A stretch of 44,857 nucleotides of DNA from Escherichia phage phiA2-1. The stretch lies in sequence record OR861626.1. One strand, written 5' to 3'. The notes below the pieces were generated by a model that was not told the DNA's origin, made no database searches, and saw only the letters and a program-made list of their open reading frames with translations. Numbering within the stretch: the stretch's first letter is position 1; each line of letters opens with the position of its first letter. A program made the translations under genes and the position numbers. Of the stretch, positions 6,651 through 20,856 are shown in pieces.

Positions 6651-6664
6651 GAGAGATTAAAGAA

Positions 6665-7587: not shown

Positions 7588-7608
7588 CCCGCTTCGGCGG
7601 GTTTTCTA
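7588..7608 (+). terminator. Terminator-like hairpin
   Basis: CCCGC-TTCG-GCGGG plus TTTTCTATT; followed by GGAGG RBS of tape measure gene. Confidence 0.4.
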
Positions 7609-7622
7609 TTATGGAGGCTTAG

Positions 7623-10598
7623 ATGGCAACAAATGAATTAGCCGGAATCACACTAGCCGTAGACGTCTCGCAGGTAGACAGAGGTACACAGTCCCTGCGG
7701 AAGTTCAGGCAGGCAAACCAGCAGGCCGCTTCCGGCATTAGTGAGTTCGTCAACGCCGAGCAGGTTGCAAAGAATCAAGCCAGAGACACAGCTCGCGCAC
7801 TGGCTGAACAGCAATCATCTTTGGCTAAATTGCAAACGGCTATTGACCCAACTGCGGCAAAGTTCCGTAAACTCCAGGAGGCTGCTGTAGGTCTTGATAA
7901 GGCTTTCGCGGCTGGAGTAGTTCCTGATGAGGAGTTTTTCCGCTTAGGTGAGGCGCTTGAAACGCAGAACGCAAAACTTGCTCGTTCACGTGCGGCACTA
8001 ACTGAAGAGGGTAGAGCGGCGGCGCAAGCTGCAAAGGATAAGGCAAAGGCAAAGGCTGAAGCGGATAGATTCATTGCATCACTTGAGCGTCAGGCTCAGG
8101 CGGCAACATTGACGCGAGAGGAGTACCTAAAGTTACAAGCGGCCCAGCTTGGCGTAAGTTCTCAGGCGGCGCCTATTATTGACAGAATCGCCGATGCATC
8201 ACGGAAGGCAAACACCCAGCTAATTGCTCAGAGCAAGGCCTTTCAACGCTCTGGCTTAAGCGCAGGTCAATACAAGGCTGCAATCTCTCAATTGCCAGCG
8301 CAGATTACAGATATTGGGACATCACTTGCTGGCGGCATTCCGATTTGGCTTATTGCAATTCAGCAAGGTGGACAAATTAAGGATGCATTTGGAGGTATTG
8401 GTAACACATTTAGTTTTGCGCTTGCTGCTTTAAACCCGTTCAACGTAGCAGTTGGGGTTCTCGGTGGCGCGCTTGTTGCTTTAGGCGTCGGTGCTGCGCA
8501 GGCTGAAAGTGAATTCAGGGCGTTAAACTCCGCCATTGCGTTCTCAAACAACTCCACAATCGCATCAATCTCGCAGGTTAGAGAGTTGGTTAGCTCTGTT
8601 TCTGATGCCACTGGTGCAACCAGAGGACTTGTGACTAGCATCGCAACAAGCCTTGTTGAGCAAGGAAACCTTACGCTAACGCAGATTGACAAGATTACTA
8701 AATCAACAGCCAGATGGGCTCAGTTGACAGGTAAGGATGCAAAGGAAATTACTGGTTACTATAACCAGATTGCGAGCGACCCAATTCAAGGACTTGCTGA
8801 TTTAGACAAGAGGTTTAACTTCCTTACACAGGGGCAGTTAACAACAATTGAAAGATTGAGAGAGACTAGGGGTGAGGTTGAAGCCGTAACTGCTGCTATT
8901 GATATATTTAGCAAATCACAAGAGGCAAACCTTAACGATATTGCAGCCCAGCTTACTCCTCTTGAATTGGCCTGGAATGACTTCAGGAAGTACATATCTG
9001 ATGTATGGGATGCAATTAGTCGCAGAACGGTTGGGGCGCTAAACCTGTTTGTTGACGTAATCGCCGGAACAATTGAGCAAATTAGGGTCTTCATCAACCA
9101 GGGTGATGTGCTGATTGGTGAATTCGTAATTAGCGCAACACAGGCACTGCAGAACATCCCCGGCCTTGATGGTGTTGGTGATGATGTTGTCAAGGGACAG
9201 CAGAAGATTATCGATGCCGCTAAGAAGCAAAACATTGAGCTAGAGAAGTCTATCAAGGAGCGCGATGCCAGAATCAGAGAAGGAGAACTTGGCTACGTTA
9301 CTCGCAGAGAAAATCAGAATACCAATGAGCAGTCAGGCACGGATGAGGAGTTTGCAAAAAGGAAGAAAGCGCTTCAGGATGAACTTGATGCGATCAAGAA
9401 GAGCAGGAAAGAAGAAAATGGTAGGGTTAAAGAGCAAAGAGACCTTACAATTGGTTACGAATCTGGCGTACTTGCACTACAGGCACAACTCAAGGTGCTT
9501 CAGGAAAACAGGGATATTGGCGCAGTAATAAGCAATGAGCGCAAGCAGTATCTTCAGGAGGTTGCAAAATTCCAGATTCTTGAGCAAAGGCAGCGTGATG
9601 GCTCAATAAAAAAAGAGCAAGCAAGACTTCTCATTGAAAAGGATAAAGTTCTTGAGTTGGCCAGGCAGAAGGCTGAGCTAGGTGATCAGATTGTTTTGCA
9701 AGAAAGAGCCAATAAGTTGGCTGAAGATAACCGCAAGAAGATTCTTCAGATTAACAATGAGGCAAGCAATATTGATTTGGGTACTGGATTATCATCTCGT
9801 GAACTGCAAAGAGCCAAAGAGATTCAGGCTCTTCAGTCCAATCAGGTCAATGCTGGTGGCTCTCTTGATGACGTTGATTTTCAGCAGCTACTGGAAGCAA
9901 GACGTAACTTTTATGCCCAGGAGGATGCGCTACGTGAAAACTGGCTCGCTGGTGTTAATCAATCCTTTGCCAATTGGGCTGAGAGCGCGACGGATGCATT
10001 CTCAATTGCTGGAAGTTTAACCACAACAGTCTTTGAAGGCATTACCGACCAGATTACAAACCTCGTAACAACTGGCGAAACAAACTTCAGAGAGTTTACT
10101 GTTAGCATCCTTAAACAGATTGCTAAGATTGCAACTCAGCTTCTTGTTGTAAAGGCCATCGAATCTAGCTTAAGTAGCTTCGGTGGTACTGGTGGCGCTA
10201 TTGGATCGATTGCATCTGGCTTGGGTTTTGCTGGTGGCGGCTACACCGGCAATGGCGGCAAGTACCAACCGGCAGGAACGGTACACCGTGGTGAATTTGT
10301 ATTCACAAAAGAAGCGACGAGCCGAATTGGTGTGAAAAACCTTTACGCGCTAATGAAAGGTTACGCAAACGGCTGCGCTGTAGGTGGTCCTTCAGGCTAT
10401 GCAAATGGGGGTTTGGTTTCTGGTGGAACAGATGTTAATGTTAGCGGAATAACTGTTAACGTTAATGGCGGTGTTGGTAGCGACCCAGAACAAGCCAAAG
10501 CATTGCAGAGTGGCGTTAAGGCAATCGTAGCGGAAGAGATTGCTCAGTCCTTCCAGCAAGGAGGAAAAGCGTATGCCTATCTGAGAGGTTTTAACTAA
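7623..10598 (+). CDS. Tail tape measure protein
   Basis: 991-aa ORF; long Ala/Gln/Lys-rich coiled-coil regions; follows the G/GT chaperone pair. Confidence 0.75.
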   Translation: MATNELAGITLAVDVSQVDRGTQSLRKFRQANQQAASGISEFVNAEQVAKNQARDTARALAEQQSSLAKLQTAIDPTAAKFRKLQEAAVGLDKAFAAGVVPDEEFFRLGEALETQNAKLARSRAALTEEGRAAAQAAKDKAKAKAEADRFIASLERQAQAATLTREEYLKLQAAQLGVSSQAAPIIDRIADASRKANTQLIAQSKAFQRSGLSAGQYKAAISQLPAQITDIGTSLAGGIPIWLIAIQQGGQIKDAFGGIGNTFSFALAALNPFNVAVGVLGGALVALGVGAAQAESEFRALNSAIAFSNNSTIASISQVRELVSSVSDATGATRGLVTSIATSLVEQGNLTLTQIDKITKSTARWAQLTGKDAKEITGYYNQIASDPIQGLADLDKRFNFLTQGQLTTIERLRETRGEVEAVTAAIDIFSKSQEANLNDIAAQLTPLELAWNDFRKYISDVWDAISRRTVGALNLFVDVIAGTIEQIRVFINQGDVLIGEFVISATQALQNIPGLDGVGDDVVKGQQKIIDAAKKQNIELEKSIKERDARIREGELGYVTRRENQNTNEQSGTDEEFAKRKKALQDELDAIKKSRKEENGRVKEQRDLTIGYESGVLALQAQLKVLQENRDIGAVISNERKQYLQEVAKFQILEQRQRDGSIKKEQARLLIEKDKVLELARQKAELGDQIVLQERANKLAEDNRKKILQINNEASNIDLGTGLSSRELQRAKEIQALQSNQVNAGGSLDDVDFQQLLEARRNFYAQEDALRENWLAGVNQSFANWAESATDAFSIAGSLTTTVFEGITDQITNLVTTGETNFREFTVSILKQIAKIATQLLVVKAIESSLSSFGGTGGAIGSIASGLGFAGGGYTGNGGKYQPAGTVHRGEFVFTKEATSRIGVKNLYALMKGYANGCAVGGPSGYANGGLVSGGTDVNVSGITVNVNGGVGSDPEQAKALQSGVKAIVAEEIAQSFQQGGKAYAYLRGFN

Positions 10599-10650
10599 TA
10601 GCACTAAATGGTAAAGCCAAAAGGATTTGGCTTGCTACAATTAGTGAAAA
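10598..10650 (+). promoter_or_regulatory. Promoter-like cassette variant (ATAGCACTAAATGGTAAAG, 22 nt, TACAAT)
   Basis: Box overlaps tape measure stop; TACAAT at 22-nt spacing; hairpin GCCAAA-AGGA-TTTGGC in the spacer. Confidence 0.4.
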
Positions 10651-10669
10651 TTAACATGAGGTTTAAAAG

Positions 10670-11140
10670 ATGAACTGGAATTATGTTTTTGAGTATAGAG
10701 AGGGTGTTCTTTATTGGAAGGTAAAACCAGCCATACAATACAATATTGGCGATGTTGCTGGTTTCTTTTGTGAAAAGAGAGGTTACATAATCGTTCAATA
10801 CAGGCGTGTAAAGGTAATGGCCCATAGGGTTGTATGGGAAATGTTTAATGGAAGAATAGCTGATGACATGGAAATTGATCACATTGACCACTCTAGAAAA
10901 AACAACAACATATCAAACCTAAGACTGGTAACGAAGAGTGATAACATGAAAAACAAAAGCATGTACTCATCAAATAAAACTGGCGTTGTCGGGGTTAGTT
11001 ACTGCAAAACAAAGAAAAAATTTATATCAAAGATAGGTAAGAGAATTCTATTAACAACAAGCAATTTTGAAGAGGCTGTAAAAGCGAGAAAAATCGCAGA
11101 GATAGCCCTTAATTATCACAAAAATCACGGGAGTAAATAA
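10670..11140 (+). CDS. HNH homing endonuclease (HNH plus AP2-like DNA-binding region)
   Basis: Motifs HRVVWE, IDHIDH, NLRLV...N..N; AT-rich gene inserted between tape measure and tail protein M. Confidence 0.7.
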   Translation: MNWNYVFEYREGVLYWKVKPAIQYNIGDVAGFFCEKRGYIIVQYRRVKVMAHRVVWEMFNGRIADDMEIDHIDHSRKNNNISNLRLVTKSDNMKNKSMYSSNKTGVVGVSYCKTKKKFISKIGKRILLTTSNFEEAVKARKIAEIALNYHKNHGSK

Positions 11141-11141
11141 T

Positions 11142-11492
11142 ATGGCTCTAGATACGTTTAATTTTTGTACTCAGGTTCAGAGTGGCGGCGGCTCATTTAC
11201 CAACGCAAGCAACGTGAGGAGTGTTTCATTCGGTAATGGCTACACCCAAATTGGAACCGGAGGCTACAGAACTAACAAGCGCACTTACAACATGACCTAC
11301 ACCAACACTAACTGGAAGGAAGTGTTAGACTTCTGTTTTGCGCACATCATTACACCTTTTGCGTGGACCACGCCACAAGGCGATACATCAATGTTTGTTA
11401 TTCAGCAGGATAGCATTAGCGTCACACCACTCAGTAAGGAAGTTCAGACTGTAAATATGCAATTCGTAGAAGTTTTTAGCTCAATGCGTTAA
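11142..11492 (+). CDS. Minor tail protein M (lambda gpM-like)
   Basis: 116-aa ORF; RSVSFGNGYTQ and WTTPQGD resemble lambda M; position before L. Confidence 0.6.
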   Translation: MALDTFNFCTQVQSGGGSFTNASNVRSVSFGNGYTQIGTGGYRTNKRTYNMTYTNTNWKEVLDFCFAHIITPFAWTTPQGDTSMFVIQQDSISVTPLSKEVQTVNMQFVEVFSSMR

Positions 11493-11497
11493 ACTAA

Positions 11498-11519
11498 GCC
11501 CCATTAGGGGCTTTTTTTA
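11498..11519 (+). terminator. Rho-independent terminator
   Basis: AGCCCC-ATTA-GGGGCT plus T7. Confidence 0.55.
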
Positions 11520-11531
11520 TTGGAGAAATAT

Positions 11532-12287
11532 ATGTTAAGTCCAAAGTTTGAAAATCAGTTGCAAAGCCTTTTCCCTGGAGAGATTGTGACTCTAATTCAG
11601 GTTGACGGCACGTCGTTTGGTTCTCGCGTTTACAATTTCCACAATGAGAACATTTCATACACACCTGAAGAAATCATGCTAGCCCAAATGAATGGCGAGC
11701 CACTACCAGAGAAAACCATCACCTTTCGTGGTGAAGAGTATGGCCCCAGACCTTTTGGTATCTCGGGCATCAATATGACCTCTGACGGCAAAGCCAACAA
11801 AGTGACGCTAACGGTGTCAAACGTAGACCAGCGCATTAGCGCATTGATTCGAACATACAACGGACTTGTTAAAGCTAAGGTTACCATCTGGATTACTACG
11901 CGAGATAACATCAATGAAGACGGAAGCATTGCTGATGGGGATTATCGCAGATTCGTTTACTTCATTGAGCGACCTAAGCAGGTTGATTACAAGACGGCAT
12001 CGTTTGAGCTAAGTAGCCCGATGGATATGGATGGTATTTACATTCCAGCAAGACTTGTTCAGTCTGTTTGCTACTGGGCTTCAAGGGGCTGGTATCGCAG
12101 CGGTAATGGTTGTGCTTATGCTGGTAATAGATACTTCAATAAGGATGATGAGCCAGTGTCAGACCCTTCATTGGATTTCTGCGCCGGAACGGTAAATAGC
12201 TGCAAGATTAGGTTTGGTGAGAATAATCAGTTGGATTTCGGTGGCTGCGCTGCAGCAAGTCTTCAGGCTAAAGCCAATCAATCATAA
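11532..12287 (+). CDS. Minor tail protein L (lambda gpL-like)
   Basis: Track ORF from 11520; ATG at 11532 after GGAG; ...TLTVSNV... motif resembling lambda L. Confidence 0.6.
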   Translation: MLSPKFENQLQSLFPGEIVTLIQVDGTSFGSRVYNFHNENISYTPEEIMLAQMNGEPLPEKTITFRGEEYGPRPFGISGINMTSDGKANKVTLTVSNVDQRISALIRTYNGLVKAKVTIWITTRDNINEDGSIADGDYRRFVYFIERPKQVDYKTASFELSSPMDMDGIYIPARLVQSVCYWASRGWYRSGNGCAYAGNRYFNKDDEPVSDPSLDFCAGTVNSCKIRFGENNQLDFGGCAAASLQAKANQS

Positions 12288-12311
12288 AAAAGGCCCCGAA
12301 AGGGGCCAAAA
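12286..12311. terminator. Bidirectional terminator between L (+) and rha-like gene (-)
   Basis: GGCCCC-GAAA-GGGGCC hairpin flanked by A-run and T/A-run. Confidence 0.5.
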
Positions 12312-12809
12312 TTACCATCCAAGAGTTAACTGTGCTTCCTTGTAAAGGTTCTCCATTTCTTCTTTCCGCTGCTTCTTGACCCTCTTCCACTCAGATAGTG
12401 TCTTTCCGCAACTGCTAGCAATCTCAACCTCTGACTTTAACGTTCCGATTAACTCATTGCATTTCTGCATTACTGATTTATTTTCTTCTTTATACTCCTC
12501 TTTAAGAATTCGCTCCATTTCGTTAAAAGCATTAATGTAAGCTTCCTTCCACTTTGCTGCCTCCTTTCCGGTAAAGCCCATTGCTAGGAATGAGAAACCA
12601 TCACGTGTAATGTCATAGCAATCTAACTTCTTGTTTTGCTTGGAAATATAAGATGAGGGCCGAAAATTAGGCTCTCTAAATTCTTCGCTACAATCAAGTC
12701 CTCGAATAGCATCAAGCACGTGCTTGTGCGACTTACCAAACTTTTCTGAAACATCCTTTGATGTGACTGTAATGCGACCATCTTTGCCTAAAGATACTAA
12801 ATCGTTCAT
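12312..12809 (-). CDS. Phage regulatory protein, Rha family (antirepressor-like)
   Basis: Track ORF 12312..12854; likely start ATG 12809 (MNDLVSL...); Rha-type motifs SEKFGKSHKHVLDAIRGL and FLAMGFTGKEAAKWKEAYINAF. Confidence 0.65.
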   Translation of the reverse strand: MNDLVSLGKDGRITVTSKDVSEKFGKSHKHVLDAIRGLDCSEEFREPNFRPSSYISKQNKKLDCYDITRDGFSFLAMGFTGKEAAKWKEAYINAFNEMERILKEEYKEENKSVMQKCNELIGTLKSEVEIASSCGKTLSEWKRVKKQRKEEMENLYKEAQLTLGW

Positions 12810-12853
12810 AATATACCTACCTGGTGAGTTGATTATTTGTTTATGGAGATTCA

Positions 12854-12882
12854 AATATAAAACTCCTAATAGGATTTGTCAA
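12854..12882 (-). promoter_or_regulatory. Sigma70-type promoter for the rha-like gene
   Basis: On minus strand: TTGACA, 17-nt spacer, TATATT, about 45 nt upstream of ATG 12809. Confidence 0.5.
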
Positions 12883-12905
12883 ATCTTAAAATCATAGAGG
12901 TGAAG

Positions 12906-13664
12906 ATGTTAACACCAAAAGTTAAACTGGAAATCTTCCAGCACGCAAAAGAAGTTTACCCGCACGAATGTTGCGGGGTTGTCACGCAGAAAGGTCGCGC
13001 GCAGAAATACCACAGAATCAAGAACGCCAGCAAAGACCCAGAGAATGAATTCATCCTTGATTCAAATGAGTATGCAGACGTTCTCTTTGAGTTGGCTCAC
13101 AACGAGTCAATTGTTTATGTAGTTCACTCTCATACAGGCGATGGAGCCACAACAAGACCAAGCCCAGCGGACATTTGCAGCTGCAATGAGTGCGAGATTC
13201 CTTACGTTATCGTCAGCATTCCGGAAGGAGACATGCGGATCCTTGAACCTTCAACCATGCCACTGATTGGTCGCCCATGGGGTCTTGGTAGCTTTGACTG
13301 CTGGGAGTTGGTAATGGCATTTCACAAGAAATACGGCGTCAAACTGAATGACTACCGCGTTAATTACCCGTGGTGGGAGAAGCGATACAATGAGAATATC
13401 TATGAAGACAACTGGATTAAGGAAGGATTTGAGCTAGTAAAAACTTCAGATATTCCTATTGGCTCAATGATTATGATGCAGGTTCAAAGTGAGGTGACAA
13501 ACCACGCCGGAATCTATATTGGCAACAACAGATTCATTCATCACCTTTATGGTAAAATGAGTTCAGTTGATATCTACTCCGATTACTGGCGAGAGCGCAC
13601 TGTGCGAATCGTTCGCCATAAGGATTTACCAGAGGATGTAATTTATGACCCAGAAACTGATTGA
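12906..13664 (+). CDS. Minor tail protein K (lambda gpK-like)
   Basis: Track ORF from 12876; ATG 12906 after GAGGTG; starts MLTPKVKLEIFQHA; HECCG and HSH motifs as in lambda K. Confidence 0.65.
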   Translation: MLTPKVKLEIFQHAKEVYPHECCGVVTQKGRAQKYHRIKNASKDPENEFILDSNEYADVLFELAHNESIVYVVHSHTGDGATTRPSPADICSCNECEIPYVIVSIPEGDMRILEPSTMPLIGRPWGLGSFDCWELVMAFHKKYGVKLNDYRVNYPWWEKRYNENIYEDNWIKEGFELVKTSDIPIGSMIMMQVQSEVTNHAGIYIGNNRFIHHLYGKMSSVDIYSDYWRERTVRIVRHKDLPEDVIYDPETD

Positions 13665-14217
13665 TATTAAGTTAGGCTTGTCTCTAGGCCGCAAGTTTGG
13701 AAAGATTCACCAGATGGCAGTGAATAGCGTGCCAGAGGCTATGCGAGCGCTTTGCTCTCAGATTCCTGCATTCAAGGAGTTCATGAGCAGCCACGTTGGG
13801 CAGAACACAAGATACGCAGTCTTTGTAGATGGTAAAAATGTGAACGAGCATCAAATCTCTGATTTTAGTGCCGTTCAGGAGATACGCATCTTGCCAATCC
13901 CGCAAGGCCGAAAGTCCGGCGGTTTGTTTCAGACAATTTTAGGTGCAGCGCTTATCACGGTTGGCATCTTCACTGGGCAGATTTATCTTGTTGGTGCTGG
14001 CGTATCTTTGGCAGCAGGTGGTATTTCCCAGCTACTCTCACCGCAGGCAACTGGATTAAAGACCCAGAACAACCAAACAAGCAACAGAGCATCTTACGCA
14101 TTTGGCTCGGCCGTGAACACTGTAGCTGCTGGTTATCCAGTTTGCCTTCCATACGGCTATCGAACTGTTGGCGGGTCTGTATTTAGTGCAGGCAGTTATA
14201 GTGAAGATATTTCTTGA
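13645..14217 (+). CDS. Tail assembly protein I (lambda gpI-like)
   Basis: 190-aa ORF overlapping K stop; Gly-rich hydrophobic C-terminal half; position between K and J. Confidence 0.5.
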   Translation: MTQKLIDIKLGLSLGRKFGKIHQMAVNSVPEAMRALCSQIPAFKEFMSSHVGQNTRYAVFVDGKNVNEHQISDFSAVQEIRILPIPQGRKSGGLFQTILGAALITVGIFTGQIYLVGAGVSLAAGGISQLLSPQATGLKTQNNQTSNRASYAFGSAVNTVAAGYPVCLPYGYRTVGGSVFSAGSYSEDIS

Positions 14218-14274
14218 TAATTAAATTATTCTGCATTACAGTCACCTTAAGATTTACTCTTTTGGTGACTTAAA

Positions 14275-14763
14275 ATGCAAAAATTCGAGAATTACCTTTA
14301 CGAGATTGATGGAAAGCTATACTGGAAGGAGGCGAGAAACAACTCGGCCAAAATAGAGTCAGAGGCTGGATTTATTCATCATTCTGGCTATAGGTATGTT
14401 AAATTGAATGACAAACAGACTTCATCTCACAGGATTCTTTGGTACTTAAGAAATGGATTCAAGATGCCACCTAAAGGCATGGAGATTGACCATATAAATG
14501 GAAACAGGCTTGACAACTCAGCTAGTAACTTACGGATTGTATCTTCATCGGTAAACTCAAAAAACAGGTCAAAAAGGTCAGATAACTCAAGCGGCGTTGC
14601 GGGAGTTGGATTTCATAAGTTAACTGGAACGTGGTGGGCTACGATATCAATAAACAAAAAGAGAAAGCACTTGGGGCTATTCGTTGATTGGTTTGAAGCA
14701 GTGTGCGCCAGAAAGAGCGCTGAGAACTTAAATGGTGAGTACACCTATAGACATGGTAAGTAA
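14275..14763 (+). CDS. HNH homing endonuclease (HNH plus AP2-like region)
   Basis: Motifs HRILWY, IDHINGN, NLRIV...N..N; inserted between I and J; inverted repeat AGTCACC/GGTGACT (14240..14270) just upstream of start. Confidence 0.7.
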   Translation: MQKFENYLYEIDGKLYWKEARNNSAKIESEAGFIHHSGYRYVKLNDKQTSSHRILWYLRNGFKMPPKGMEIDHINGNRLDNSASNLRIVSSSVNSKNRSKRSDNSSGVAGVGFHKLTGTWWATISINKKRKHLGLFVDWFEAVCARKSAENLNGEYTYRHGK

Positions 14764-14769
14764 AATCAG

Positions 14770-14792
14770 AACCCGCCTGGCGCGGGTTTTTT
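14770..14792 (+). terminator. Rho-independent terminator
   Basis: AACCCGC-CTGG-CGCGGGTT plus T-run. Confidence 0.55.
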
Positions 14793-14804
14793 ATTTACTG
14801 TAGA

Positions 14805-17800
14805 ATGGCACAAATGATCAAAACAAACATGAGGCTTTGTGATATGGCTGAAGAGATTAAGATTTATGGTGCCAAGGGTGGTAGCCAAAAGCAGCATCAA
14901 CCAGTGGAGCAGGAAGATAACCTAATTTCACTTAACAAGGTTAAGGTTCTTTTGGCGGTTGCTGACGGTGAGGTGGATCCTAACTTCTCATTGAAGGATT
15001 TATACCTTGCTGACGTTCCGGTACAAAATCAGGATGGTAGCTACAACTATGAAGGTGTTCGCGCTGAGTTCCGTGCTGGCACGCAGTATCAGGACTATAT
15101 CGCCGGGCTTGACGGTGCTAACTCAGAGATTCAGGCATCCAGAGAAATCAAGAACGATACCCCGTACATCATTGCAGTTAACAATACTCAGCTTTCAGCA
15201 ATTCGAGTTAAGCTATTCTGGCCTCGACTGGTTAAGCAAGAAAGCAATGGAGACCTGAACGGAACAACCTGCGAGTATGCAATTGACCTTTCTGTTAATG
15301 GTGGCGCTTACCAGGAATACACTCGCGGAGTTGCTAACGGAAAGACCACTACAGGTTACGACCGAAGCATTCGCGTAAACCTTCCGGCAGAATTTGATAG
15401 CGCGCTTGTTCGCATCCGTAAGATTACGCCGGATTCAACAAGTAGCACCCTGGTTAACGGTATGCAGATTACAACCTATCAGGAAGTAATTGACGCTAAA
15501 TTCCGCTATCCGCTTACGGCTCTGGTTTACGTTGAGTTTGGTTCTGACTTGTTCCCTAACGGCATCCCAACAATCTCAATCAAGAAGAGATGGAAGTTGA
15601 TTCAGGTTCCTACAAACTATAACCCTGAAACCAGAACTTATAGCGGCACATGGAATGGTCTATTCAAGATGGCATGGTCAAACAACCCAGCATGGGTTCT
15701 TTATGACCTAGTAACAAACCGCCGTTACGGACTTGACCAGCGAGAGCTGGGTGTAGAGATTGATAAGTGGGGCCTGTACGAAGCTGCACAATTCTGTGAC
15801 CAGATGGTTCCAGATGGCAAGGGTGGCTTAGAGCCGCGTTACCTTTGCGATATGGTTGTACAGAACAAGGTTGAGGCTTACACGCTAATTCGTGATATCT
15901 GTTCAATCTTTCGCGGCCTGACTTTCTATGACGGCGAAAAGATTGGCATCGTGGTTGATAAGCCTCGCAACCCATCTTACATCTTCACCAATGATAACGT
16001 TGTAAACGGATTGTTCAGTCGCACATTTGCCAGCGATAAAAGTCTTTACACCACGGCAAACGTTCAGTTTGATGATGTAGAGAACAACTATCAGCAGGAT
16101 GTTGAGCCAGTATTTGAGCTTGAGGCTACTCGCAGGTTCGGGTTTAATCCAGTCGACCTTACGGCAATTGGCTGCACTCGCAGAAGTGAAGCAAACAGAC
16201 GCGGCAGATGGCTCCTAAAAACCAACCTGAGAAGCGAAACTATCAGCTTCACTACCGGGTTGGAAGGCATGATTCCGATGATTGGCGAGGTTATTGCAGT
16301 TAATGATGCGGCATGGTCGAGCAACTATCAGTTGAACCTTTCCGGCCGCATTGAATCAGTGCAGGGGCTACAGGTTTTTACACCGTTTAAAGTTGACGCA
16401 GCGCCGGGTGACAGAATTCTTCTTAACAAGCCAGACGGAAGCCCGGAGGCAAGAACTATTGCCAGTGTTTCGGAAGACGGCAGAACAATCAACCTTAACA
16501 CTGCTTTCAGTTTTGTAGCTCAGCCAGACACTGTGTTCGCAATTGATAAGGATAACCTTGCGCTTCAGCAGTATGTTGTGACCGGGATTCAAAAGGCAGA
16601 TACTGACGGCTCTGATTCATTTCAGTACACGATTACTGCGGTGGAGTATGACCCTAACAAGTATGACGAGATTGACTACGGCGTTAATATTGTTGACCGT
16701 CCAACTTCAGTCGTAGAGCCTGATAGATTGTCGCCACCTGAGAATTTAACAGTGTCAAGCTACAGCAAGGTTGTTCAAGGATTATCAGTTGAGACGATGG
16801 TTATCGGGTGGGATAAAGCGCCATACGCTAAAACCTACAATGTTCAGTGGAGAAAAGAGAATGGCAACTGGATTAACGTACCAAGAACAGCTAGCACAGA
16901 GGTTGATATCGAAGGTATTTACGCAGGAATTTATGACGTTAGGGTTCGCAGCGTATCAGATACTGAAAACGTGTCTGCCTGGTCTGGTATTGTAACGGTA
17001 TCGCTAACTGGCAAGATTGGTCGCCCATCGGCACCTACGGTTATCACGGCGTCAACTGATGAAGTATTTGGTATCCGTGTTAAATGGGGATTCCCTGAAG
17101 GCTCTGGCGATACTGCTTACACTGAGCTTCAGCAGGTTCCAGATAATGGTGATGGTACTTACAATCCTGATAATGCAAGTTTGCTTACGTTACTTCCTTA
17201 TCCTGCCTACGAATACTGGCATACGCCAATTCAGCCAGGTAAGGTGATTTGGTATCGCGCAAGATTGATTGACAGAATCGGAAATACCTCTGATTGGTCT
17301 AATTTCGCAAGAGGCATGAGTACTGACGACGCAAACATTATCAATGATTTCATCAAGGTTGATATTGAAGGTTCAGAAGGATTCAAATACCTCGAGCAGA
17401 ATGCGATTCAAAAGAATCAGGACATTCAGAATCAAGCTGAGGCAATTATCGAGAACGCACTGGCTAATGATGGCGATGTTCGCAGAATGACAAAGGAGAA
17501 CGGCAAGCGTAAGGCTGAATATGTTCAGGCTGTGAATCTCATAGCCGATGAAACTCAGGCGCGCGTAGAGGCTCTAACGGCCCTTAAGGCGCAGATAGAT
17601 GATGAAGTTGTAGCATCGATTACAGAAGTTCAGACTGCATTAGCCACAGAGACAGAAGCAAGGACTACTGCAGACACGACTCTATCAGCAAGACTTGGTG
17701 AAAATGAGGCGGCTTTAAACCAGAAGCTGGACGCATTCTCTAATGCCACATCGACTGGTGTGCAGTACGGAATTAGTCTTGGCCTGAAATACAATGGACA

Positions 17801-18161
17801 GACTTATTCATCCGGTATGAGCATGGAGCTTGTCGGCACTGGTGACAATGTTCGTAGTCAATTCATTTTTGACGCAAACAGATTCGCTATCAGTAACGGC
17901 ATTGGTTACGGCTCCGGTCAGTGGCAACTCCCCTTCGTTGTCGAGAATGGAAACGTAATCATCAAGAGTGCAGTTATCGGCGATGGCTCAATCAGTAACG
18001 CGAAGATTGGTAACTTTATTCAGTCTAATGACTGGGGTACAAATTCAGGCTGGAGGCTAGATAAGGATGATGGATTGACGCTTAGGGGTTCCGATCGTGG
18101 CAAGATGAGAGTCCTGGACCGGAATGGAGTGGTTAGGGTAAAATTAGGATACTTGGGTTAA
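14805..18161 (+). CDS. Tail tip / host specificity protein (lambda J-like central tail fiber)
   Basis: 1118 aa; strong resemblance to lambda J, e.g. NYNPETRTYSGTWNG...AWVLYDL...RYG...DKWGLYEAAQFCDQMVPDGKGGLEPRY; ATG at 14844 is a plausible alternative start. Confidence 0.8.
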   Translation: MAQMIKTNMRLCDMAEEIKIYGAKGGSQKQHQPVEQEDNLISLNKVKVLLAVADGEVDPNFSLKDLYLADVPVQNQDGSYNYEGVRAEFRAGTQYQDYIAGLDGANSEIQASREIKNDTPYIIAVNNTQLSAIRVKLFWPRLVKQESNGDLNGTTCEYAIDLSVNGGAYQEYTRGVANGKTTTGYDRSIRVNLPAEFDSALVRIRKITPDSTSSTLVNGMQITTYQEVIDAKFRYPLTALVYVEFGSDLFPNGIPTISIKKRWKLIQVPTNYNPETRTYSGTWNGLFKMAWSNNPAWVLYDLVTNRRYGLDQRELGVEIDKWGLYEAAQFCDQMVPDGKGGLEPRYLCDMVVQNKVEAYTLIRDICSIFRGLTFYDGEKIGIVVDKPRNPSYIFTNDNVVNGLFSRTFASDKSLYTTANVQFDDVENNYQQDVEPVFELEATRRFGFNPVDLTAIGCTRRSEANRRGRWLLKTNLRSETISFTTGLEGMIPMIGEVIAVNDAAWSSNYQLNLSGRIESVQGLQVFTPFKVDAAPGDRILLNKPDGSPEARTIASVSEDGRTINLNTAFSFVAQPDTVFAIDKDNLALQQYVVTGIQKADTDGSDSFQYTITAVEYDPNKYDEIDYGVNIVDRPTSVVEPDRLSPPENLTVSSYSKVVQGLSVETMVIGWDKAPYAKTYNVQWRKENGNWINVPRTASTEVDIEGIYAGIYDVRVRSVSDTENVSAWSGIVTVSLTGKIGRPSAPTVITASTDEVFGIRVKWGFPEGSGDTAYTELQQVPDNGDGTYNPDNASLLTLLPYPAYEYWHTPIQPGKVIWYRARLIDRIGNTSDWSNFARGMSTDDANIINDFIKVDIEGSEGFKYLEQNAIQKNQDIQNQAEAIIENALANDGDVRRMTKENGKRKAEYVQAVNLIADETQARVEALTALKAQIDDEVVASITEVQTALATETEARTTADTTLSARLGENEAALNQKLDAFSNATSTGVQYGISLGLKYNGQTYSSGMSMELVGTGDNVRSQFIFDANRFAISNGIGYGSGQWQLPFVVENGNVIIKSAVIGDGSISNAKIGNFIQSNDWGTNSGWRLDKDDGLTLRGSDRGKMRVLDRNGVVRVKLGYLG

Positions 18162-18202
18162 TAAATTATTGGCGGGTAAATCCCGCCTAAGGTTTTATTT
18201 GT

Positions 18203-18574
18203 ATGGCTGGTTTGTATGGTTGGGAGATGTACGATTCTGCGGGGCGGCTTGTAGCTGACAATAGCAGCATAATGAGCAGGAGGCTATTCACTTATAGCGT
18301 GCCACTGATAAGGGCTTTATCTGCAAACATACCATGGGAAGTCTCATTTAATGTTAACTTCTCAAATGGAACGCCTTATGCGCATTGCAATACCAGAACA
18401 GGGGTGGTGGTCCCTGCATCTACTAACTGGTATCCAGTATCACCTGATATAATAATATCTGGAAATGCAGTTACACTCAGGTATACAAACAGGCATGTTT
18501 CCTATCCGGACGATCTTGGGTACATACTTGCAGTTGGTGGTGTTGATGTTCACTTAGGAGTTTATAATAAATGA
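18203..18574 (+). CDS. Hypothetical protein (tail-associated by position)
   Basis: 123-aa ORF downstream of J; stop overlaps next start. Confidence 0.3.
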   Translation: MAGLYGWEMYDSAGRLVADNSSIMSRRLFTYSVPLIRALSANIPWEVSFNVNFSNGTPYAHCNTRTGVVVPASTNWYPVSPDIIISGNAVTLRYTNRHVSYPDDLGYILAVGGVDVHLGVYNK

Positions 18575-19368
18575 GTGATTATGGTGTTGAACTAATAAAT
18601 GACTATGGTTTAAAGGTTGCTGACGCAGAGGATGTAAATTACGTACTAAGAAGTTCTGGTACATTTAATGATTCAAATTTCTACTCATATGCAAACTCCA
18701 CATCTGCAATTAGCCTCATGACCACAGGAATGAATTCGCCTCTTCTATTTCTAAAGATGAACGAAAGTAGGTCAAGGATAAGCCAGAAGCCTGGAGTTAA
18801 CAAAATATCACCTGATTTTGTTAACCCAAATACCACAATAACAAAGACAAGCATAGACCTATTCAAGTGGTGGAACATACCGCTAGGAACTGTAGAGTAT
18901 TACATATTTGACAAGTGGATCCCGCCAGAAAGAAGTGATTATGGAATGCAGATATTTAATGAATCTGGTTCTATAATCTTTGATTCTGGCTGGTACTTCC
19001 TCAAACTTAGGGATGTGCTATGGCTTGATCCAAGTTATCCAAACCATTCAGATCAGGAAGGTGGTAGTAACTGGACTAACGTCGGGAATATTGTCAACTC
19101 CGCGAACGTATCAAACTCAGCATTATCAATGCCTGTTGGTAGGGGGTGGGTTGAAACATCATTGCAGGGTGGGTACTACTATAATGAATGCTGTCACCTT
19201 GACTCATCCGGTAATCTATTTATATCCATAATACCTACAGGTATATACCTTGATGTTTCACCAACTGGCGGCTGGGTTGGCAATATGAGGACGCAAGTTA
19301 TGGTTTGCGACACCTCGAGGCTGCCTCTTAATTACAATCCAGTTGAGATAAGAAAGGAAAACAAATAA
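18571..19368 (+). CDS. Hypothetical protein, Asn/Ser/Gly/Trp/Tyr-rich (tail-associated by position)
   Basis: 265-aa ORF, last gene of the plus-strand late block. Confidence 0.3.
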   Translation: MSDYGVELINDYGLKVADAEDVNYVLRSSGTFNDSNFYSYANSTSAISLMTTGMNSPLLFLKMNESRSRISQKPGVNKISPDFVNPNTTITKTSIDLFKWWNIPLGTVEYYIFDKWIPPERSDYGMQIFNESGSIIFDSGWYFLKLRDVLWLDPSYPNHSDQEGGSNWTNVGNIVNSANVSNSALSMPVGRGWVETSLQGGYYYNECCHLDSSGNLFISIIPTGIYLDVSPTGGWVGNMRTQVMVCDTSRLPLNYNPVEIRKENK

Positions 19369-19390
19369 AAATAAGGCCCTTAATGGGCCT
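19362..19390. terminator. Bidirectional terminator-like hairpin
   Basis: AAGGCCC-TTAAT-GGGCCTT between convergent genes. Confidence 0.4.
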
Positions 19391-19565
19391 TCTTGTTAAA
19401 ACAATATCCAGCTGGTAAAACCGAATAAAGATTTTGATTTACCTCTCCATTGCTGTATTCACAACCTCTAATTGTAACTGAGTAGTCACTGATAAGAACT
19501 ATAGTTCTTTCACCGCCTGAACAACCAGCTAAAATCATTGCAGTGATAACGATTAATTTTTTCAT
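19380..19565 (-). CDS. Small outer-membrane lipoprotein, Cor-like superinfection-exclusion candidate
   Basis: 61 aa; lipoprotein signal MKKLIVITAMILAGC (lipobox LAGC); last gene of a minus-strand operon. Confidence 0.45.
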   Translation of the reverse strand: MKKLIVITAMILAGCSGGERTIVLISDYSVTIRGCEYSNGEVNQNLYSVLPAGYCFNKKAH

Positions 19566-19566
19566 C

Positions 19567-19671
19567 TTAGAACCCTTTAAAGTTGCTAGCCAGCATCAGA
19601 AGCCATACGAAGAAACCAGTAGCTGCTACACCGAAGATTGCAGAGATTACGTTAGTAGTTAAGTTAGTCAT
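19567..19671 (-). CDS. Small hydrophobic membrane peptide (34 aa), not in ORF track
   Basis: Hand translation MTNLTTNVISAIFGVAATGFFVWLLMLASNFKGF; AAGGAA RBS; stop 1 nt before the lipoprotein ATG. Confidence 0.3.
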   Translation of the reverse strand: MTNLTTNVISAIFGVAATGFFVWLLMLASNFKGF

Positions 19672-19689
19672 TTTGTATTCCTTAGTAAG

Positions 19690-19755
19690 TGTGTTTCGTT
19701 TCGATGGAAAGATAATACCGCATCCTTGCGATAAGTGTTTAGCAATTAGTGCTAT
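19690..19755 (-). promoter_or_regulatory. Promoter-like cassette (minus orientation)
   Basis: Minus strand reads AATAGCACTAATTGCTAAA, 22 nt, TATTAT, then CATCGAAACGAAACACAC leader before the small peptide gene. Confidence 0.5.
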
Positions 19756-20024
19756 TAGTGAATATCCTCACAGCCAGGAATGGACTTAACATTGTAATGC
19801 CGATAAGCGAATATCAAGTTAAGAGCCTGCTCGACCGTGCATTTAAGGGCGCCAGAGATAATAAATGAAGACTCAGTGATGTGATTTATTAACTCATTTC
19901 TGACAGGGTCGTCATCTGCTAGTAACTCTGCGCGCTTAACAAAAAGAGCGTTGTTTACCAGGATTGTCACAACCTTTTCATTGAGCTCTTTCTTCGCTTT
20001 TGCAATCTCTTTCTCGTAGTTCAT
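19755..20024 (-). CDS. Hypothetical protein
   Basis: 89-aa ORF; stop codon lies inside the downstream cassette box. Confidence 0.35.
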   Translation of the reverse strand: MNYEKEIAKAKKELNEKVVTILVNNALFVKRAELLADDDPVRNELINHITESSFIISGALKCTVEQALNLIFAYRHYNVKSIPGCEDIH

Positions 20025-20166
20025 CTTATACCGCCTTGTTTTCGATTTGCATTACGCTATTAACTGACATCATAACATTCCGATTCTGCTGCTGAGTAGT
20101 GGTTACTACATGCTGCATTTTATTGCAGTCACTTTAAATGACCACATCTTATTGTGGTCATTAGTG

Positions 20167-20832
20167 CTACTTATCTTTAAGTAGCAACTTGATATCAATT
20201 CCTAGATTATTCTCAATCAATCCAGTCAGTGCACCTACCTTTTCCTTAAGTGCGAAGCACTGTGTTTCATACTTGAATCTCAACTCCATCTCATCAGAGC
20301 GACTTGACCAGCACTGCCGAGCCTCGCACGCTAGCTCATCAATCTTCTTGTCAAGTTCCTTATCTGACAGGGTGATTTCAGTAATTCGCTGCTCAGCTAC
20401 GATTCTCTGGATCAAGTGAGCATTCTGCGCTTGCAGGTATCCATTCTTCATTCTTTCCTCTTTAAGTTCATCAATGCTTACCATCTGACTGATTACTTCC
20501 GCTTGCTTGTTGATGGTGCTTTGCATTTCTTTAAGCTTAGCAAGCACTGCGCGACGAACGAACTTTGATTCTCTCATCCCAATCAAAAGCATCTGTTCCA
20601 TATTGAGCACTGGTGAGTTGATTGACTTTCTATAACCTCCTCTACCCTCACTCTTGATTACGAAACTTTCGTAGTCAAACTCAAACCCTTCAAGCTCATC
20701 CTCTATTCTCTCAACAAAGTCATTGTGTCGAACATTGGACTCCCCAGCGATCAACCTCGCTGGGTTGATAACTTCATTTAAAAACTGATAACTATTCATT
20801 TTTACGTCTTCATTAAGTAATGCTAAGTTCAT
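20167..20832 (-). CDS. Rha-family-like regulatory protein with coiled-coil C-terminal half (putative)
   Basis: Track ORF to 20856; likely start ATG 20832; SNVRHNDFVERIEDEL and MLLIGMRESKFVRRAVLAKL resemble Rha motifs. Confidence 0.4.
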   Translation of the reverse strand: MNLALLNEDVKMNSYQFLNEVINPARLIAGESNVRHNDFVERIEDELEGFEFDYESFVIKSEGRGGYRKSINSPVLNMEQMLLIGMRESKFVRRAVLAKLKEMQSTINKQAEVISQMVSIDELKEERMKNGYLQAQNAHLIQRIVAEQRITEITLSDKELDKKIDELACEARQCWSSRSDEMELRFKYETQCFALKEKVGALTGLIENNLGIDIKLLLKDK

Positions 20833-20856
20833 TTTCGTCTCTCTTTTGTTTTTCAT

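What the first reader, a model, noticed from the sequence alone, without database searches (positions are those of the whole stretch)
14240..14275. Hairpins positioned over the translation start regions of homing endonuclease genes
An inverted repeat AGTCACC...GGTGACT ends a few nt before the ATG of the HNH gene at 14275, and GCCAAA-AGGA-TTTGGC precedes the HNH gene at 10670. RBS occlusion is a known way to keep homing endonucleases at low, late levels.
Basis: inference. Interest (0 to 1): 0.35.

Follow-up and report, generated by a model that had tools for sequence, protein, structure and literature searches.

The report
RBS-hiding hairpin on phage endonuclease gene
One of two mobile HNH endonuclease genes in this T1-like coliphage tail operon has a conserved RNA hairpin predicted to bury its ribosome-binding site and start codon, with a predicted promoter inside the hairpin that would bypass it, as in phage T4 homing endonucleases; the second reported hairpin is real but does not cover a start site.

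Summary
The tail module is 100% identical to Escherichia phage vB_EcoS-IME253 (Drexlerviridae).

It is a three-tier stem-loop (-20.1 kcal/mol, z -5.3) that pairs the SD GGUGA and the AUG of the HNH gene at 14275. It lies inside the ~546-bp mobile cassette, which is absent from related phages. With its Sd1 ortholog it is the most extreme start-region fold among 372 genes in five Drexlerviridae genomes. The stem is kept in nine distinct orthologous leaders while the loop varies, and one leader has a compensatory A-U to G-C change.

New here: a sigma70-like promoter (TTGATA-17-TACAGT, 14214-14242), second best on the window's + strand, has its -10 over the 5' arm. The predicted start (A14249) is just past that arm, so its transcripts would have a free SD. 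All nine orthologs keep this layout. It mirrors T4 I-TevI, segB and Aeh1 mobE, but with a host-type promoter.

Hairpin 1 (10614-10633) is real and conserved. It ends 24 nt upstream of the SD of the 10670 gene, and that start region folds no better than shuffled sequence.

Start-site occlusion is not general among HNH_3 genes. Verdict: a new member of a known kind. All evidence is computational.

The parts
14215..14760 (+). Mobile HNH cassette (~546 bp) between the last codon or stop of tail gene I and the native I-J terminator
   Evidence: Alignment of occupied and empty sites (BEK2, Rtp, Sf12) shows native ...ATTGCT TAA A(A/T)ATCA.. ACCCGCC. The HNH stop TAA sits where the native I stop TAA context resumes.
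14214..14219 (+). Predicted -35 hexamer TTGATA (overlaps the gene I stop TGA)
   Evidence: My own PWM scan scores the site 12.65 bits, second best on the + strand and in the top 3e-5 of all window positions. The tool's consensus scan lists it as 9/12. TTGAnn is kept in all nine orthologous leaders.
14237..14242 (+). Predicted -10 hexamer TACAGT, overlapping the outer stem and the first 3 nt of the core 5' arm
   Evidence: It is TAnnGT in all nine orthologs, with a 16-17 nt spacer of divergent sequence.
14249..14249 (+). Predicted transcription start (A, 7 nt after the -10), 3 nt past the end of the 5' arm (14246) in IME253 and the first nt past it in the extended-stem orthologs
   Evidence: An A at this exact offset is found in all nine orthologs. 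RNA starting here folds at only -3.5 kcal/mol, z +0.45, so the stable sequestering stem is lost; the weak MFE fold still pairs GGUGA.
14232..14237 (+). Outer stem, 5' strand UGCAUU (pairs with 14274-14279, including the AUG)
   Evidence: MFE and centroid fold. 87% of alignment cells are paired across nine leaders.
14240..14246 (+). Core stem 5' arm AGUCACC (anti-SD mimic)
   Evidence: It is invariant except for one compensatory change in L169, and it extends to 8-10 bp in orthologs.
14247..14263 (+). Loop of 17 nt with an inner 4-bp helix AAGA/UCUU (14249-14252 with 14258-14261)
   Evidence: The loop is 10-17 nt long and of different sequence in orthologs.
14264..14270 (+). Core stem 3' arm GGUGACU; the SD GGUGA is 14264-14268
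   Evidence: Orthologs carry the stronger SD GAGGUGA, matched by the arm extension CCUC.
14274..14279 (+). Outer stem, 3' strand AAUGCA containing the start codon (14275-14277)
14275..14763 (+). HNH_3 endonuclease gene (162 aa)
   Evidence: ORF. PF13392, E 1.1e-13. Annotated as HNH or homing endonuclease in IME253, ZL19, Rao1 and Sd1.
14768..14790 (+). Native intrinsic terminator of the I-J junction, now just after the HNH ORF
   Evidence: Terminator scan. It is present in the empty sites of BEK2, Rtp and Sf12.
10614..10633 (+). Hairpin 1: AAGCCAAA-AGGA-UUUGGCUU (8 bp, 4-nt loop). An extended helix spans 10602-10646.
   Evidence: A 29-nt block is invariant in TR1, ACG-M12, JeanPiccard and ECH1. 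The loop and 3' arm align to the native gene M SD region of empty sites.
10633..10641 (+). Extended -10-like TGCTACAAT (TGCTATAAT in relatives); weak candidate promoter for the 10670 gene
   Evidence: Conserved in alignment A3. The PWM score is only 5-6 bits without the TG bonus. Unresolved.
10658..10661 (+). SD GAGG of the 10670 HNH gene; not part of hairpin 1
   Evidence: Sequence. The local fold is -6.7 kcal/mol, z -0.93.
10670..11140 (+). HNH_3 endonuclease gene (156 aa). Its last codons provide the SD GGGAG for gene M (ATG 11142).
   Evidence: The empty site in RobRod40, Rtp and Sd1 lacks it.

Best explanation
The HNH endonuclease cassette between tail genes I and J carries its own expression switch in a 57-nt leader.

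Transcripts that read through from gene I contain the whole leader. It folds into a stable three-tier hairpin. The core stem pairs the SD (GGUGA) with an anti-SD-like arm (AGUCACC), and an outer stem pairs the AUG with an upstream CAU. On the abundant tail-operon mRNA the endonuclease is therefore not translated, or only barely.

A sigma70-type promoter lies in the same leader (TTGATA-17-TACAGT). Its -10 overlaps the 5' arm, and its predicted start (A14249) lies just past that arm. These transcripts cannot form the stem, have a free SD, are translatable, and end at the native I-J terminator (14768-14790). Endonuclease output would then depend on the cassette's own promoter, not on tail-operon transcription.

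Shown by computation: the hairpin, its significance, its position inside the cassette, and conservation of the hairpin and promoter layout. Inferred: that it represses translation, that the promoter fires at about 14249, and the timing.

Hairpin 1 is not an RBS occluder. It is a conserved intercistronic hairpin just after the tape-measure gene. It replaces the native GGGGCUUCGGCCCC hairpin of empty sites and holds the orphaned SD of gene M in its loop. It most likely serves the upstream transcript or silences that orphan SD; confidence in this is low.
For: - Fold: -20.1 kcal/mol, z -5.26, matched by 0 of 200 shuffles; SD and AUG are both paired.
- In the IME253 genome it ranks 2 of 74 for start-region stability and 2 of 74 for lowest SD+AUG accessibility.
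- Across five Drexlerviridae genomes it (z -5.4) and its Sd1 ortholog (z -6.0) are the most extreme of 372 start regions. Only 0.8% of non-HNH genes reach z <= -4.
- The hairpin lies inside the cassette, which is absent from empty sites.
- All six orthologous leaders folded against shuffles are significant (z -4.1 to -6.8, matched by 0 of 200). The three found later fold at -16.6 to -20.7 kcal/mol; L165 lacks the outer helix.
- The core arms are kept in nine distinct leaders from proteins of 74-89% identity, while the loop varies from 10 to 17 nt. Where the SD lengthens to GAGGUGA, the arm lengthens to UCACCUC.
- There is one compensatory A-U to G-C change, in L169. 89.6% of cells are paired, against 33-43% in slid registers.
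- Promoter: 12.65 bits, second best on the + strand of the 44.9-kb window, in the same class as sites upstream of the regulator and Rha genes.
- The promoter is kept as TTGATT-16-TACAGT, TTGATT-16-TATAGT, TTGACT-17-TATAGT and TTGACA-17-TATGGT with divergent spacers. An A lies exactly 7 nt after the -10 in 9 of 9.
- RNA starting at 14249 folds at -3.5 kcal/mol, z +0.45.
- No terminator was found between gene I and the leader.
- The T4 precedent is described in PMC2988022.
- T1-like phages are reported to use 5-10 host sigma70 promoters (PMC4070988).
Against: - There are no transcript, structure-probing or expression data.
- Each arm has its own reason to be conserved: the 5' arm overlaps the -10, and the 3' arm is the SD. 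Invariance is therefore weaker evidence for pairing than it looks.
- Only one compensatory event was seen, and 54 of 500 shuffles reach the same covariation score.
- My PWM uses base frequencies recalled from memory. The tool's own consensus scan rates the site an ordinary 9/12 match and finds no excess of such sites over shuffles.
- Several of the nine leaders are close relatives, so they are not independent.
- It is not known whether tail-operon transcripts read through this junction, or when the promoter would be active in a T1-like infection.
- The genome-wide controls used the IME253 record and four relatives, not the window's own gene set. The window is identical to IME253 only across about 6000-21000.
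Confidence: 0.68

Rival explanations
1. Occlusion only, with no internal promoter. The hairpin keeps endonuclease translation at a low, leaky level from read-through tail-operon mRNA, and the promoter-like hexamers are fortuitous.
For: The hairpin evidence is as above. The tool's consensus scan sees the promoter as one of 19 ordinary 9/12 matches in 12 kb. TTGA partly overlaps the gene I stop codon in IME253, and AGT of the -10 is part of the stem, so some hexamer conservation has other causes.
Against: In L079-L081 and L169 the gene I stop is a TAG upstream of TTGAC(T/A), so the -35 is not explained by the stop codon. The spacer length of 16-17 nt and the A at +7 are kept in 9 of 9 while the spacer sequence diverges. 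Ortholog scores reach 14.6 bits, above any site in the window.
Confidence: 0.2
2. The stem-loops are RNA processing or stability elements, such as RNase III or RNase E sites or 3'-end protectors. They would separate or stabilise tail-operon mRNA segments, and start-site burial would be incidental.
For: The Sd1 version extends to about 30 paired positions with small internal loops (-30 to -34 kcal/mol), which resembles an RNase III substrate. Hairpin 1 and the native GGGGCUUCGGCCCC hairpin occupy the same place just after the tape-measure stop in occupied and empty sites. RNase E processing is known for T4 segB and segG and for Aeh1 mobE (PMC2988022).
Against: For hairpin 2 the paired partners are specifically the SD and the AUG, and the stem grows when the SD grows. 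A pure processing site does not predict that. No tool here can test for cleavage motifs.
Confidence: 0.07
3. Hairpin 1 is a DNA operator rather than an RNA element. It would be a palindrome over the -35 and spacer of a cassette promoter (TGCTAYAAT), derived from the endonuclease's own target site. The HNH protein or a phage regulator would bind it to repress transcription, as I-TevI autorepresses.
For: It is a perfect 8-bp palindrome inside a 29-nt invariant block that runs into an extended -10-like TGCTA(T/C)AAT. The block aligns with the empty-site sequence AATGG...AAGGATTT..GGCT. I-TevI binds an operator that resembles its homing site and overlaps its promoter (PMC2988022).
Against: The promoter score is weak, 5-6 bits, about the top 1% of positions. 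Similarity to the empty site is equally explained by descent from the insertion site. No second copy of the palindrome occurs in the window, and there is no binding evidence.
Confidence: 0.1
4. Both inverted repeats are chance features of AT-rich intergenic DNA with no function.
For: Perfect 7-bp inverted repeats are frequent: 76 in the window against about 57 in random sequence. By that density, roughly two genes per genome could have such an arm over their SD by chance.
Against: The full hairpin 2 fold is the most extreme of 372 start regions. It is kept in nine distinct orthologous leaders with variable loops and one compensatory change. The hairpin 1 block is invariant where the flanks and ORF have diverged to about 76% identity.
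Confidence: 0.03

Closest known systems
[quoted passage not shown]
   Same: The endonuclease gene sits inside a longer host transcription unit. A stable hairpin sequesters the SD on read-through transcripts. A promoter immediately upstream is placed so that its transcripts lack the 5' part of the hairpin and are translatable.
   Different: Here the gene is free-standing in an intergenic site of a tail operon, not intron-encoded. The enzyme is HNH_3; I-TevI and I-TevII are GIY-YIG. The promoter is a host sigma70-type -35/-10 pair, not a T4 late promoter, so the timing logic may differ. The phage is a T1-like siphovirus with no known late sigma factor. Nothing has been tested experimentally.
Aeromonas phage Aeh1 mobE and T4 segB: free-standing endonucleases with the same hairpin and promoter arrangement (Gibb and Edgell 2007 and 2009, cited in PMC2988022; the 2009 paper was not held)
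   Same: A free-standing endonuclease gene (HNH for mobE) inserted between or within host genes. An RNA hairpin sequesters the RBS, and a promoter is positioned to bypass it.
   Different: The phage family, promoter class and insertion context differ (tail module, not nucleotide-metabolism genes). The stem here also pairs the AUG through a second helix. There is no sequence relationship between the leaders.
seg43(25) of Aeromonas phage 25: a stable hairpin just upstream of, but not covering, the RBS (PMC2988022)
   Same: Like hairpin 1, a conserved stem-loop in the endonuclease leader leaves the RBS free, and its role is unknown.
   Different: The seg43(25) stem ends directly at the RBS. Hairpin 1 ends 24 nt upstream of it and appears partly derived from the native tape-measure/M intergenic region.
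General RBS-occluding leader hairpins of late genes on polycistronic phage mRNAs (T4 soc, e, 39, 25, 26; PMC2988022)
   Same: An SD paired in a local hairpin on long transcripts, relieved on shorter transcripts.
   Different: Those are phage host genes. Here the element travels with a mobile cassette.

Membership tests
T4-type hairpin-regulated homing endonuclease genes (I-TevI/II/III, segB, Aeh1 mobE) | The gene encodes a homing-endonuclease-family protein that is mobile (present or absent at a fixed site among related genomes) | tested here: met
   PF13392 HNH_3, E 1.1e-13. The I-J junction is occupied in IME253, ZL19, Rao1, Sd1 and several metagenomic contigs, and empty in BEK2, Rtp, Sf12, phiEB49 and many others. 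Cleavage and homing activity were not tested.
T4-type hairpin-regulated homing endonuclease genes (I-TevI/II/III, segB, Aeh1 mobE) | A stable RNA hairpin includes the Shine-Dalgarno sequence | tested here: met
   The core stem pairs GGUGA(CU), and an outer stem pairs the AUG. The fold is -20.1 kcal/mol, z -5.26. It is the most extreme of 372 start regions together with its Sd1 ortholog and is conserved in nine leaders. This is a prediction only, with no probing.
T4-type hairpin-regulated homing endonuclease genes (I-TevI/II/III, segB, Aeh1 mobE) | The gene is embedded in a longer upstream transcription unit, so read-through transcripts contain the full hairpin | tested here: inconclusive
   It is on the same strand as tail genes K and I. 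There is a 57-nt gap after the gene I stop with no terminator-like site in it. No transcript data are available.
T4-type hairpin-regulated homing endonuclease genes (I-TevI/II/III, segB, Aeh1 mobE) | A promoter is positioned so that its transcripts start inside the hairpin and lack the 5' arm | tested here: met
   At sequence level: TTGATA-17-TACAGT with the -10 overlapping the 5' arm and a predicted +1 at A14249. It is second best on the + strand of the window and is kept with 16-17 nt spacing and an A at +7 in 9 of 9 orthologs. RNA from 14249 is unstructured. The start site was not mapped.
T4-type hairpin-regulated homing endonuclease genes (I-TevI/II/III, segB, Aeh1 mobE) | The bypassing promoter is a phage late or middle promoter, giving late-only translation | tested here: not met
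   The element is a host sigma70-type -35/-10 pair. No T4-late-type TATAAATA is present. Timing is unknown.
T4-type hairpin-regulated homing endonuclease genes (I-TevI/II/III, segB, Aeh1 mobE) | Disrupting the stem raises translation, and compensatory changes restore repression | not testable with these tools
   This needs reporter fusions or phage mutants.
Intrinsic (rho-independent) terminator | A GC-rich stem with a short loop, followed directly by a U-tract | tested here: not met
   Neither hairpin is reported by the terminator scan. Hairpin 2 is followed by UAAAAUG and hairpin 1 by GCUACAAUUAG. True terminators were found at 7586-7603, 11496-11513 and 14768-14790.
RBS-occluding hairpin (applied to hairpin 1 and the 10670 gene) | The stem includes the SD or start codon, and the start region is more structured than chance | tested here: not met
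   The stem ends at 10633, and the SD is at 10658-10661. The local start-region fold has z -0.93. Five relatives have z -0.67 to +1.33.
Curated RNA families (Rfam 15) | A match at or above a family's gathering score | tested here: not met
   Across 10000-15500 there are only two sub-threshold chance hits, both on terminators.

The most novel reading that the evidence does not exclude
The I-J HNH cassette is a self-contained, portable expression module: its own host-type promoter, an anti-SD hairpin whose 5' arm is skipped by that promoter, and capture of the resident terminator. It would insulate endonuclease synthesis from the very strong late transcription of the tail operon. It would instead tie synthesis to unmodified host RNA polymerase, making it 'on from its own promoter, silent on late read-through RNA'. 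That is the reverse of the T4 'late-only' logic. It would show that the hairpin-plus-embedded-promoter design evolved independently in mobile endonucleases of unrelated phage families.
Probability: 0.4. Interest if true: 0.5.

Novelty: new member of a known kind. Interest (0 to 1): 0.4.

Why it matters
Homing endonuclease cassettes must be expressed enough to spread without harming the operon they invade. The only worked-out solutions come from T4-like phages.

Finding the same architecture in a T1-like siphovirus, built from unrelated sequence and a host-type promoter, would suggest convergent evolution of this control logic. It would also give a compact, testable 60-nt element: a promoter, an anti-SD arm and an SD.

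On the practical side, HNH insertions in Drexlerviridae tail modules can evidently bring their own promoters and translational controls. That is relevant to annotation and to engineering these common laboratory and fermentation contaminant phages.

The negative results are useful too. Start-site occlusion is not a general property of HNH_3 genes, and the second hairpin should not be annotated as an RBS occluder.

Tried and rejected
- A search of viral contigs for the hairpin 1 palindrome (AAGCCAAA-N4-TTTGGCTT) returned 49 loci. Apart from IME253 and IME542 they look like chance matches in unrelated contigs, so the result was uninformative.
- The protein-pattern scan of JGI metagenome contigs for HNH2 orthologs found only one distant relative at 42% identity. 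Orthologs came from the protein database and contig look-ups instead.
- Rfam gave no relevant family.
- On the first six leaders, formal covariation showed no double changes. After adding L165, L167 and L169 there was a single compensatory pair. The support is therefore conservation and thermodynamics, not covariation statistics.
- I tested whether start-site occlusion is general for HNH genes. In five genomes HNH genes have somewhat less accessible SDs (Mann-Whitney p 1.3e-4; 12 against 360 genes). The signal comes from the I-J lineage and from terminator hairpins upstream of other cassettes, and orthologs are not independent. z-scores show only the I-J genes as outliers. The 59 distinct distant paralogues average z -0.13, though their start codons were assigned heuristically.
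- I tested whether HNH cassettes generally bring strong promoters. The effect is weak (p 0.036), and only three of twelve score at least 11 bits, two of them the I-J orthologs.
- The ACG-M12-type HNH1 leaders have a small SD-pairing stem (AUCAACUCAU/AUGAGGUGAU) just after TATAAT, a miniature of the same design. It is not more stable than shuffles (z -0.2 to +1.3), so I make no claim for it.
- Translational coupling from gene I as a way to open hairpin 2 was rejected. The stop codon (14215-14217) is 15 nt upstream of the first paired base.
- The Gibb and Edgell 2009 mobE paper (PMC2655525) is not held. It is cited only through the review.
Full report
**Context**

Window 10300-15000 is 100% identical to Escherichia phage vB_EcoS-IME253 (Rtpvirus, Drexlerviridae). 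The window as a whole matches that record exactly only across about 6000-21000, so it is a mosaic close relative.

The region is a lambda-like tail module on the + strand:
- tape-measure gene, 7623-10598
- HNH gene, 10670-11140
- M, 11142-11492
- L, 11520-12287
- a Rha-family gene on the minus strand, 12312-12854
- K, 12876-13664
- I, 13645-14217
- HNH gene, 14275-14763
- J, from 14805

Both HNH proteins match PF13392 HNH_3. Both are present or absent at fixed junctions among related phages.

**Check of the observation**

Both inverted repeats exist where stated. AGTCACC (14240-14246) and GGTGACT (14264-14270) flank a 17-nt loop, and the 3' arm ends 4 nt before the ATG at 14275. The second repeat is really 8 bp, AAGCCAAA/TTTGGCTT at 10614-10633 with loop AGGA. 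It ends 36 nt before the ATG at 10670 and 24 nt before its SD (GAGG, 10658-10661).

Repeats of this size are common. The window has 76 perfect 7-bp repeats with loops of 3-20 nt against about 57 in random sequence. The bare observation is therefore not significant, and any weight must come from context.

**Hairpin 2: anatomy and significance**

Folding 14218-14300 gives a three-tier structure at -20.1 kcal/mol. Shuffles average -7.3, which gives z -5.26, and none of 200 shuffles fold as well.
- The outer helix UGCAUU (14232-14237) with AAUGCA (14274-14279) pairs the start codon.
- The core helix pairs the SD GGUGA.
- A small inner helix closes the loop.
- The 5' arm (G)UCACC resembles the 3' end of 16S rRNA, so it acts as a cis anti-SD. 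This last point rests on established knowledge.

Among the 74 annotated genes of IME253 this start region ranks second for stability and second for lowest SD+AUG accessibility. Across 372 genes of five Drexlerviridae genomes (IME253, Rtp, ACG-M12, phiEB49, Sd1), this gene (z -5.4) and its Sd1 ortholog (z -6.0) are the two most extreme. Only 0.8% of non-HNH genes reach z <= -4.

**Hairpin 2 belongs to the mobile cassette**

Empty I-J junctions in BEK2, Rtp and Sf12 read ...GAAGATATTGCT TAA A(A/T)ATCA.. ACCCGCC, running straight into a conserved intrinsic terminator. In the window about 546 bp (14215-14760) are inserted between the last codon of I and that TAA context. The leader with the hairpin therefore arrived with the endonuclease gene. 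The terminator at 14768-14790 is native.

**Conservation**

Phage databases hold only IME253, ZL19 and Rao1 (near-identical to each other) and Sd1 (82% nucleotide identity). The protein database added orthologs at the same I-J locus with 74-75% protein identity, and cluster variants. Together these give nine distinct leader sequences.
- All nine keep CACC...GGUGAC.
- The stem is 7 bp in IME253, 8 bp in Sd1 and 9-10 bp in the others.
- The extension CCUC/GAGG appears together with a longer SD, GAGGUGA.
- The loop varies from 10 to 17 nt with different sequence.
- L169 carries a compensatory change at the base of the core stem, A-U to G-C (TATGGTCACC...GGTGACC).
- On the nine-sequence alignment 89.6% of cells are paired, against 33-43% when the 3' strand is slid by 1-3 columns.

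The six leaders folded against shuffles are all significant, z -4.1 to -6.8. The three found later (L165, L167, L169) fold at -16.6 to -20.7 kcal/mol without a shuffle control, and L165 lacks the outer helix.

Two caveats apply. Most stem pairs never vary, which says nothing either way. There is only one compensatory event, and 54 of 500 shuffles match the covariation score. Each arm also has an independent reason to be conserved, as described next.

**A promoter embedded in the hairpin**

The tool's consensus scan listed TTGATA (14214-14219), a 17-nt spacer and TACAGT (14237-14242) as one of many 9/12 matches. I then applied a position-weighted score, using base frequencies recalled from the classic E. 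coli promoter compilations, so it is approximate. By that score the site reaches 12.65 bits. It is second best on the + strand of the whole window and in the top 3e-5 of positions on both strands.

Across the five genomes only about five to seven genes per genome have an upstream site of at least 11 bits. These include sensible places: the transcriptional-regulator gene, the Rha gene and operon starts. That count fits the 5-10 sigma70 promoters reported for T1-like phages (PMC4070988).

The orthologs carry TTGATT-16-TACAGT, TTGATT-16-TATAGT, TTGACT-17-TATAGT (14.6 bits, above anything in the window) and TTGACA-17-TATGGT. Their spacers differ in sequence but are always 16-17 nt. In the latter two forms the gene I stop codon is a TAG upstream of the -35, so the -35 is not a by-product of the stop codon.

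The -10 overlaps the first bases of the 5' arm. The nucleotide 7 nt after the -10 is an A in 9 of 9 leaders. It lies just past the 5' arm, as the first nucleotide in the extended-stem orthologs and the third in IME253. RNA beginning at 14249 folds at only -3.5 kcal/mol, z +0.45, so the stable sequestering stem is lost.

**Mechanism proposed**

Read-through RNA from gene I carries the closed hairpin and should be translationally silent. Transcripts from the cassette promoter lack the anti-SD arm, should be translatable, and end at the native terminator.

Coupling to gene I translation cannot open the stem. The stop codon at 14215-14217 is 15 nt upstream of the first paired base; this is inference from ribosome footprint size.

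This arrangement matches the one described for T4 I-TevI, I-TevII, I-TevIII and segB and for Aeh1 mobE (PMC2988022). The difference is the promoter: a host-type -35/-10 pair here, a T4 late promoter there.

**Hairpin 1**

It lies inside the leader of the HNH cassette at the tape-measure/M junction. Empty sites (RobRod40, Rtp, Sd1) read TAA TTAATGGGGCTTCGGCCCCTAAGGATTTTTATGGCT. That is a GC hairpin followed by the SD and ATG of gene M.

In occupied sites the block TGGTAAAGCCAAAAGGATTTGGCTTGCTA is invariant in IME253, TR1, ACG-M12, JeanPiccard and ECH1, although the ORFs are only about 76% identical. phiEB49 differs at four positions, one of which opens the innermost pair.

MAFFT aligns the AAGGATTT of the hairpin loop and 3' arm with the native gene M SD region. 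Hairpin 1 therefore seems to be built partly from the old junction, with the orphaned SD of M held in its 4-nt loop.

It does not touch the HNH SD. The start regions of this gene and of five relatives fold no better than shuffles, z -0.93 to +1.33. It has no U-tract and is not called as a terminator.

An extended -10-like TGCTA(T/C)AAT follows it, but this scores weakly.

My best guess is a hairpin serving the upstream tape-measure transcript or silencing the orphan SD. An I-TevI-style operator is a minority alternative. The closest published parallel is the unexplained upstream hairpin of seg43(25) (PMC2988022).

**Is occlusion general?**

No.
- Of twelve HNH genes in five Drexlerviridae genomes, only the I-J lineage has a sequestering hairpin.
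- Several others sit just downstream of terminator hairpins, which explains a modest group-wide shift in fold statistics.
- Fifty-nine distinct distant HNH_3 paralogues from viral contigs have start-region z-scores centred on zero. Their start codons were assigned heuristically.

**Verdict**

The element at 14214-14279 is best read as a T4-style hairpin-plus-embedded-promoter switch carried by a free-standing HNH cassette in a T1-like phage. I found no report of this in the searched literature. It is a new member of a known kind, of moderate interest, and every claim rests on computation.

Noticed in passing
window 12292-12882 (minus strand): A Rha-family regulator gene (PF09669 and ORF11CD3; 12312-12854, minus strand) sits antisense between tail genes L and K. 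It has the best sigma70 match in the region (TTGACA-17-TATATT, 12882-12854) and its own terminator (12307-12292), so it looks like a moron-like cassette. The same L-K junction holds an HNH gene in Rtp (rtp40) and a small 'virion structural protein' gene in ACG-M12 and phiEB49, which suggests an insertion hot spot.
   Followed up: partly
window 11125-11145: The last codons of the 10670 HNH gene (...CAC GGG AGT AAA TAA) supply the SD GGGAG for tail gene M, whose ATG (11142) lies 1 nt after the HNH stop. The cassette replaced M's native SD (AAGGA) with one inside its own coding sequence. That makes loss of the cassette costly to the phage. TR1 and phiEB49 are similar, and in ACG-M12 the two ORFs overlap.
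   Followed up: partly
window 14768-14790; empty sites L004-L006 around 470-500: A conserved bidirectional-looking intrinsic terminator (AACCCGCC..GGCGGGTT followed by T-run) lies between tail genes I and J in all relatives, with or without the cassette. How J is transcribed past it is unclear; read-through or a promoter are possible.
   Followed up: no
L077 (Sd1) 29616-, L076 (phiEB49) 35377-, L075 (ACG-M12) 39194+, L093, L088: Several other HNH_3 cassettes sit immediately downstream of canonical intrinsic terminators, for example AGCACCCUUCGGGGUGCU followed by a U-run and UAGCCGCGAAAGCGGCUA. They could be promoterless cassettes placed after terminators, or cassettes with a preference for inserting there.
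   Followed up: partly
L009, L010 (ACG-M12, JeanPiccard) leader about 600-630: In the ACG-M12-type leader of the tape-measure/M cassette, a perfect TGCTATAAT is followed by a small stem AUCAACUCAU/AUGAGGUGAU that pairs the SD. It is a miniature of the hairpin 2 design but is no more stable than shuffled sequence (z about 0).
   Followed up: partly
whole window: Exact 60-mers of the window match the IME253 record only across about 6000-21000. The rest is diverged, so the window comes from a mosaic relative sharing an identical tail module with IME253.
   Followed up: partly
window 14205-14220 against empty sites: Cassette-bearing genomes end gene I with ...ATT TCT TGA or ...ATT TCA TAG (Ser). 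Empty genomes end it with ...ATT GCT TAA (Ala). The last codon of I therefore travels with the cassette. This could reflect co-conversion, or a change that protects against the endonuclease's own cleavage.
   Followed up: no
L082/L083 (about 50%-identical HNH paralogue next to a tail-terminator gene): This paralogue lies next to a GIY-YIG/NUMOD3 endonuclease gene in the same phage contigs. Its leader is unstructured (-4.3 kcal/mol).
   Followed up: no
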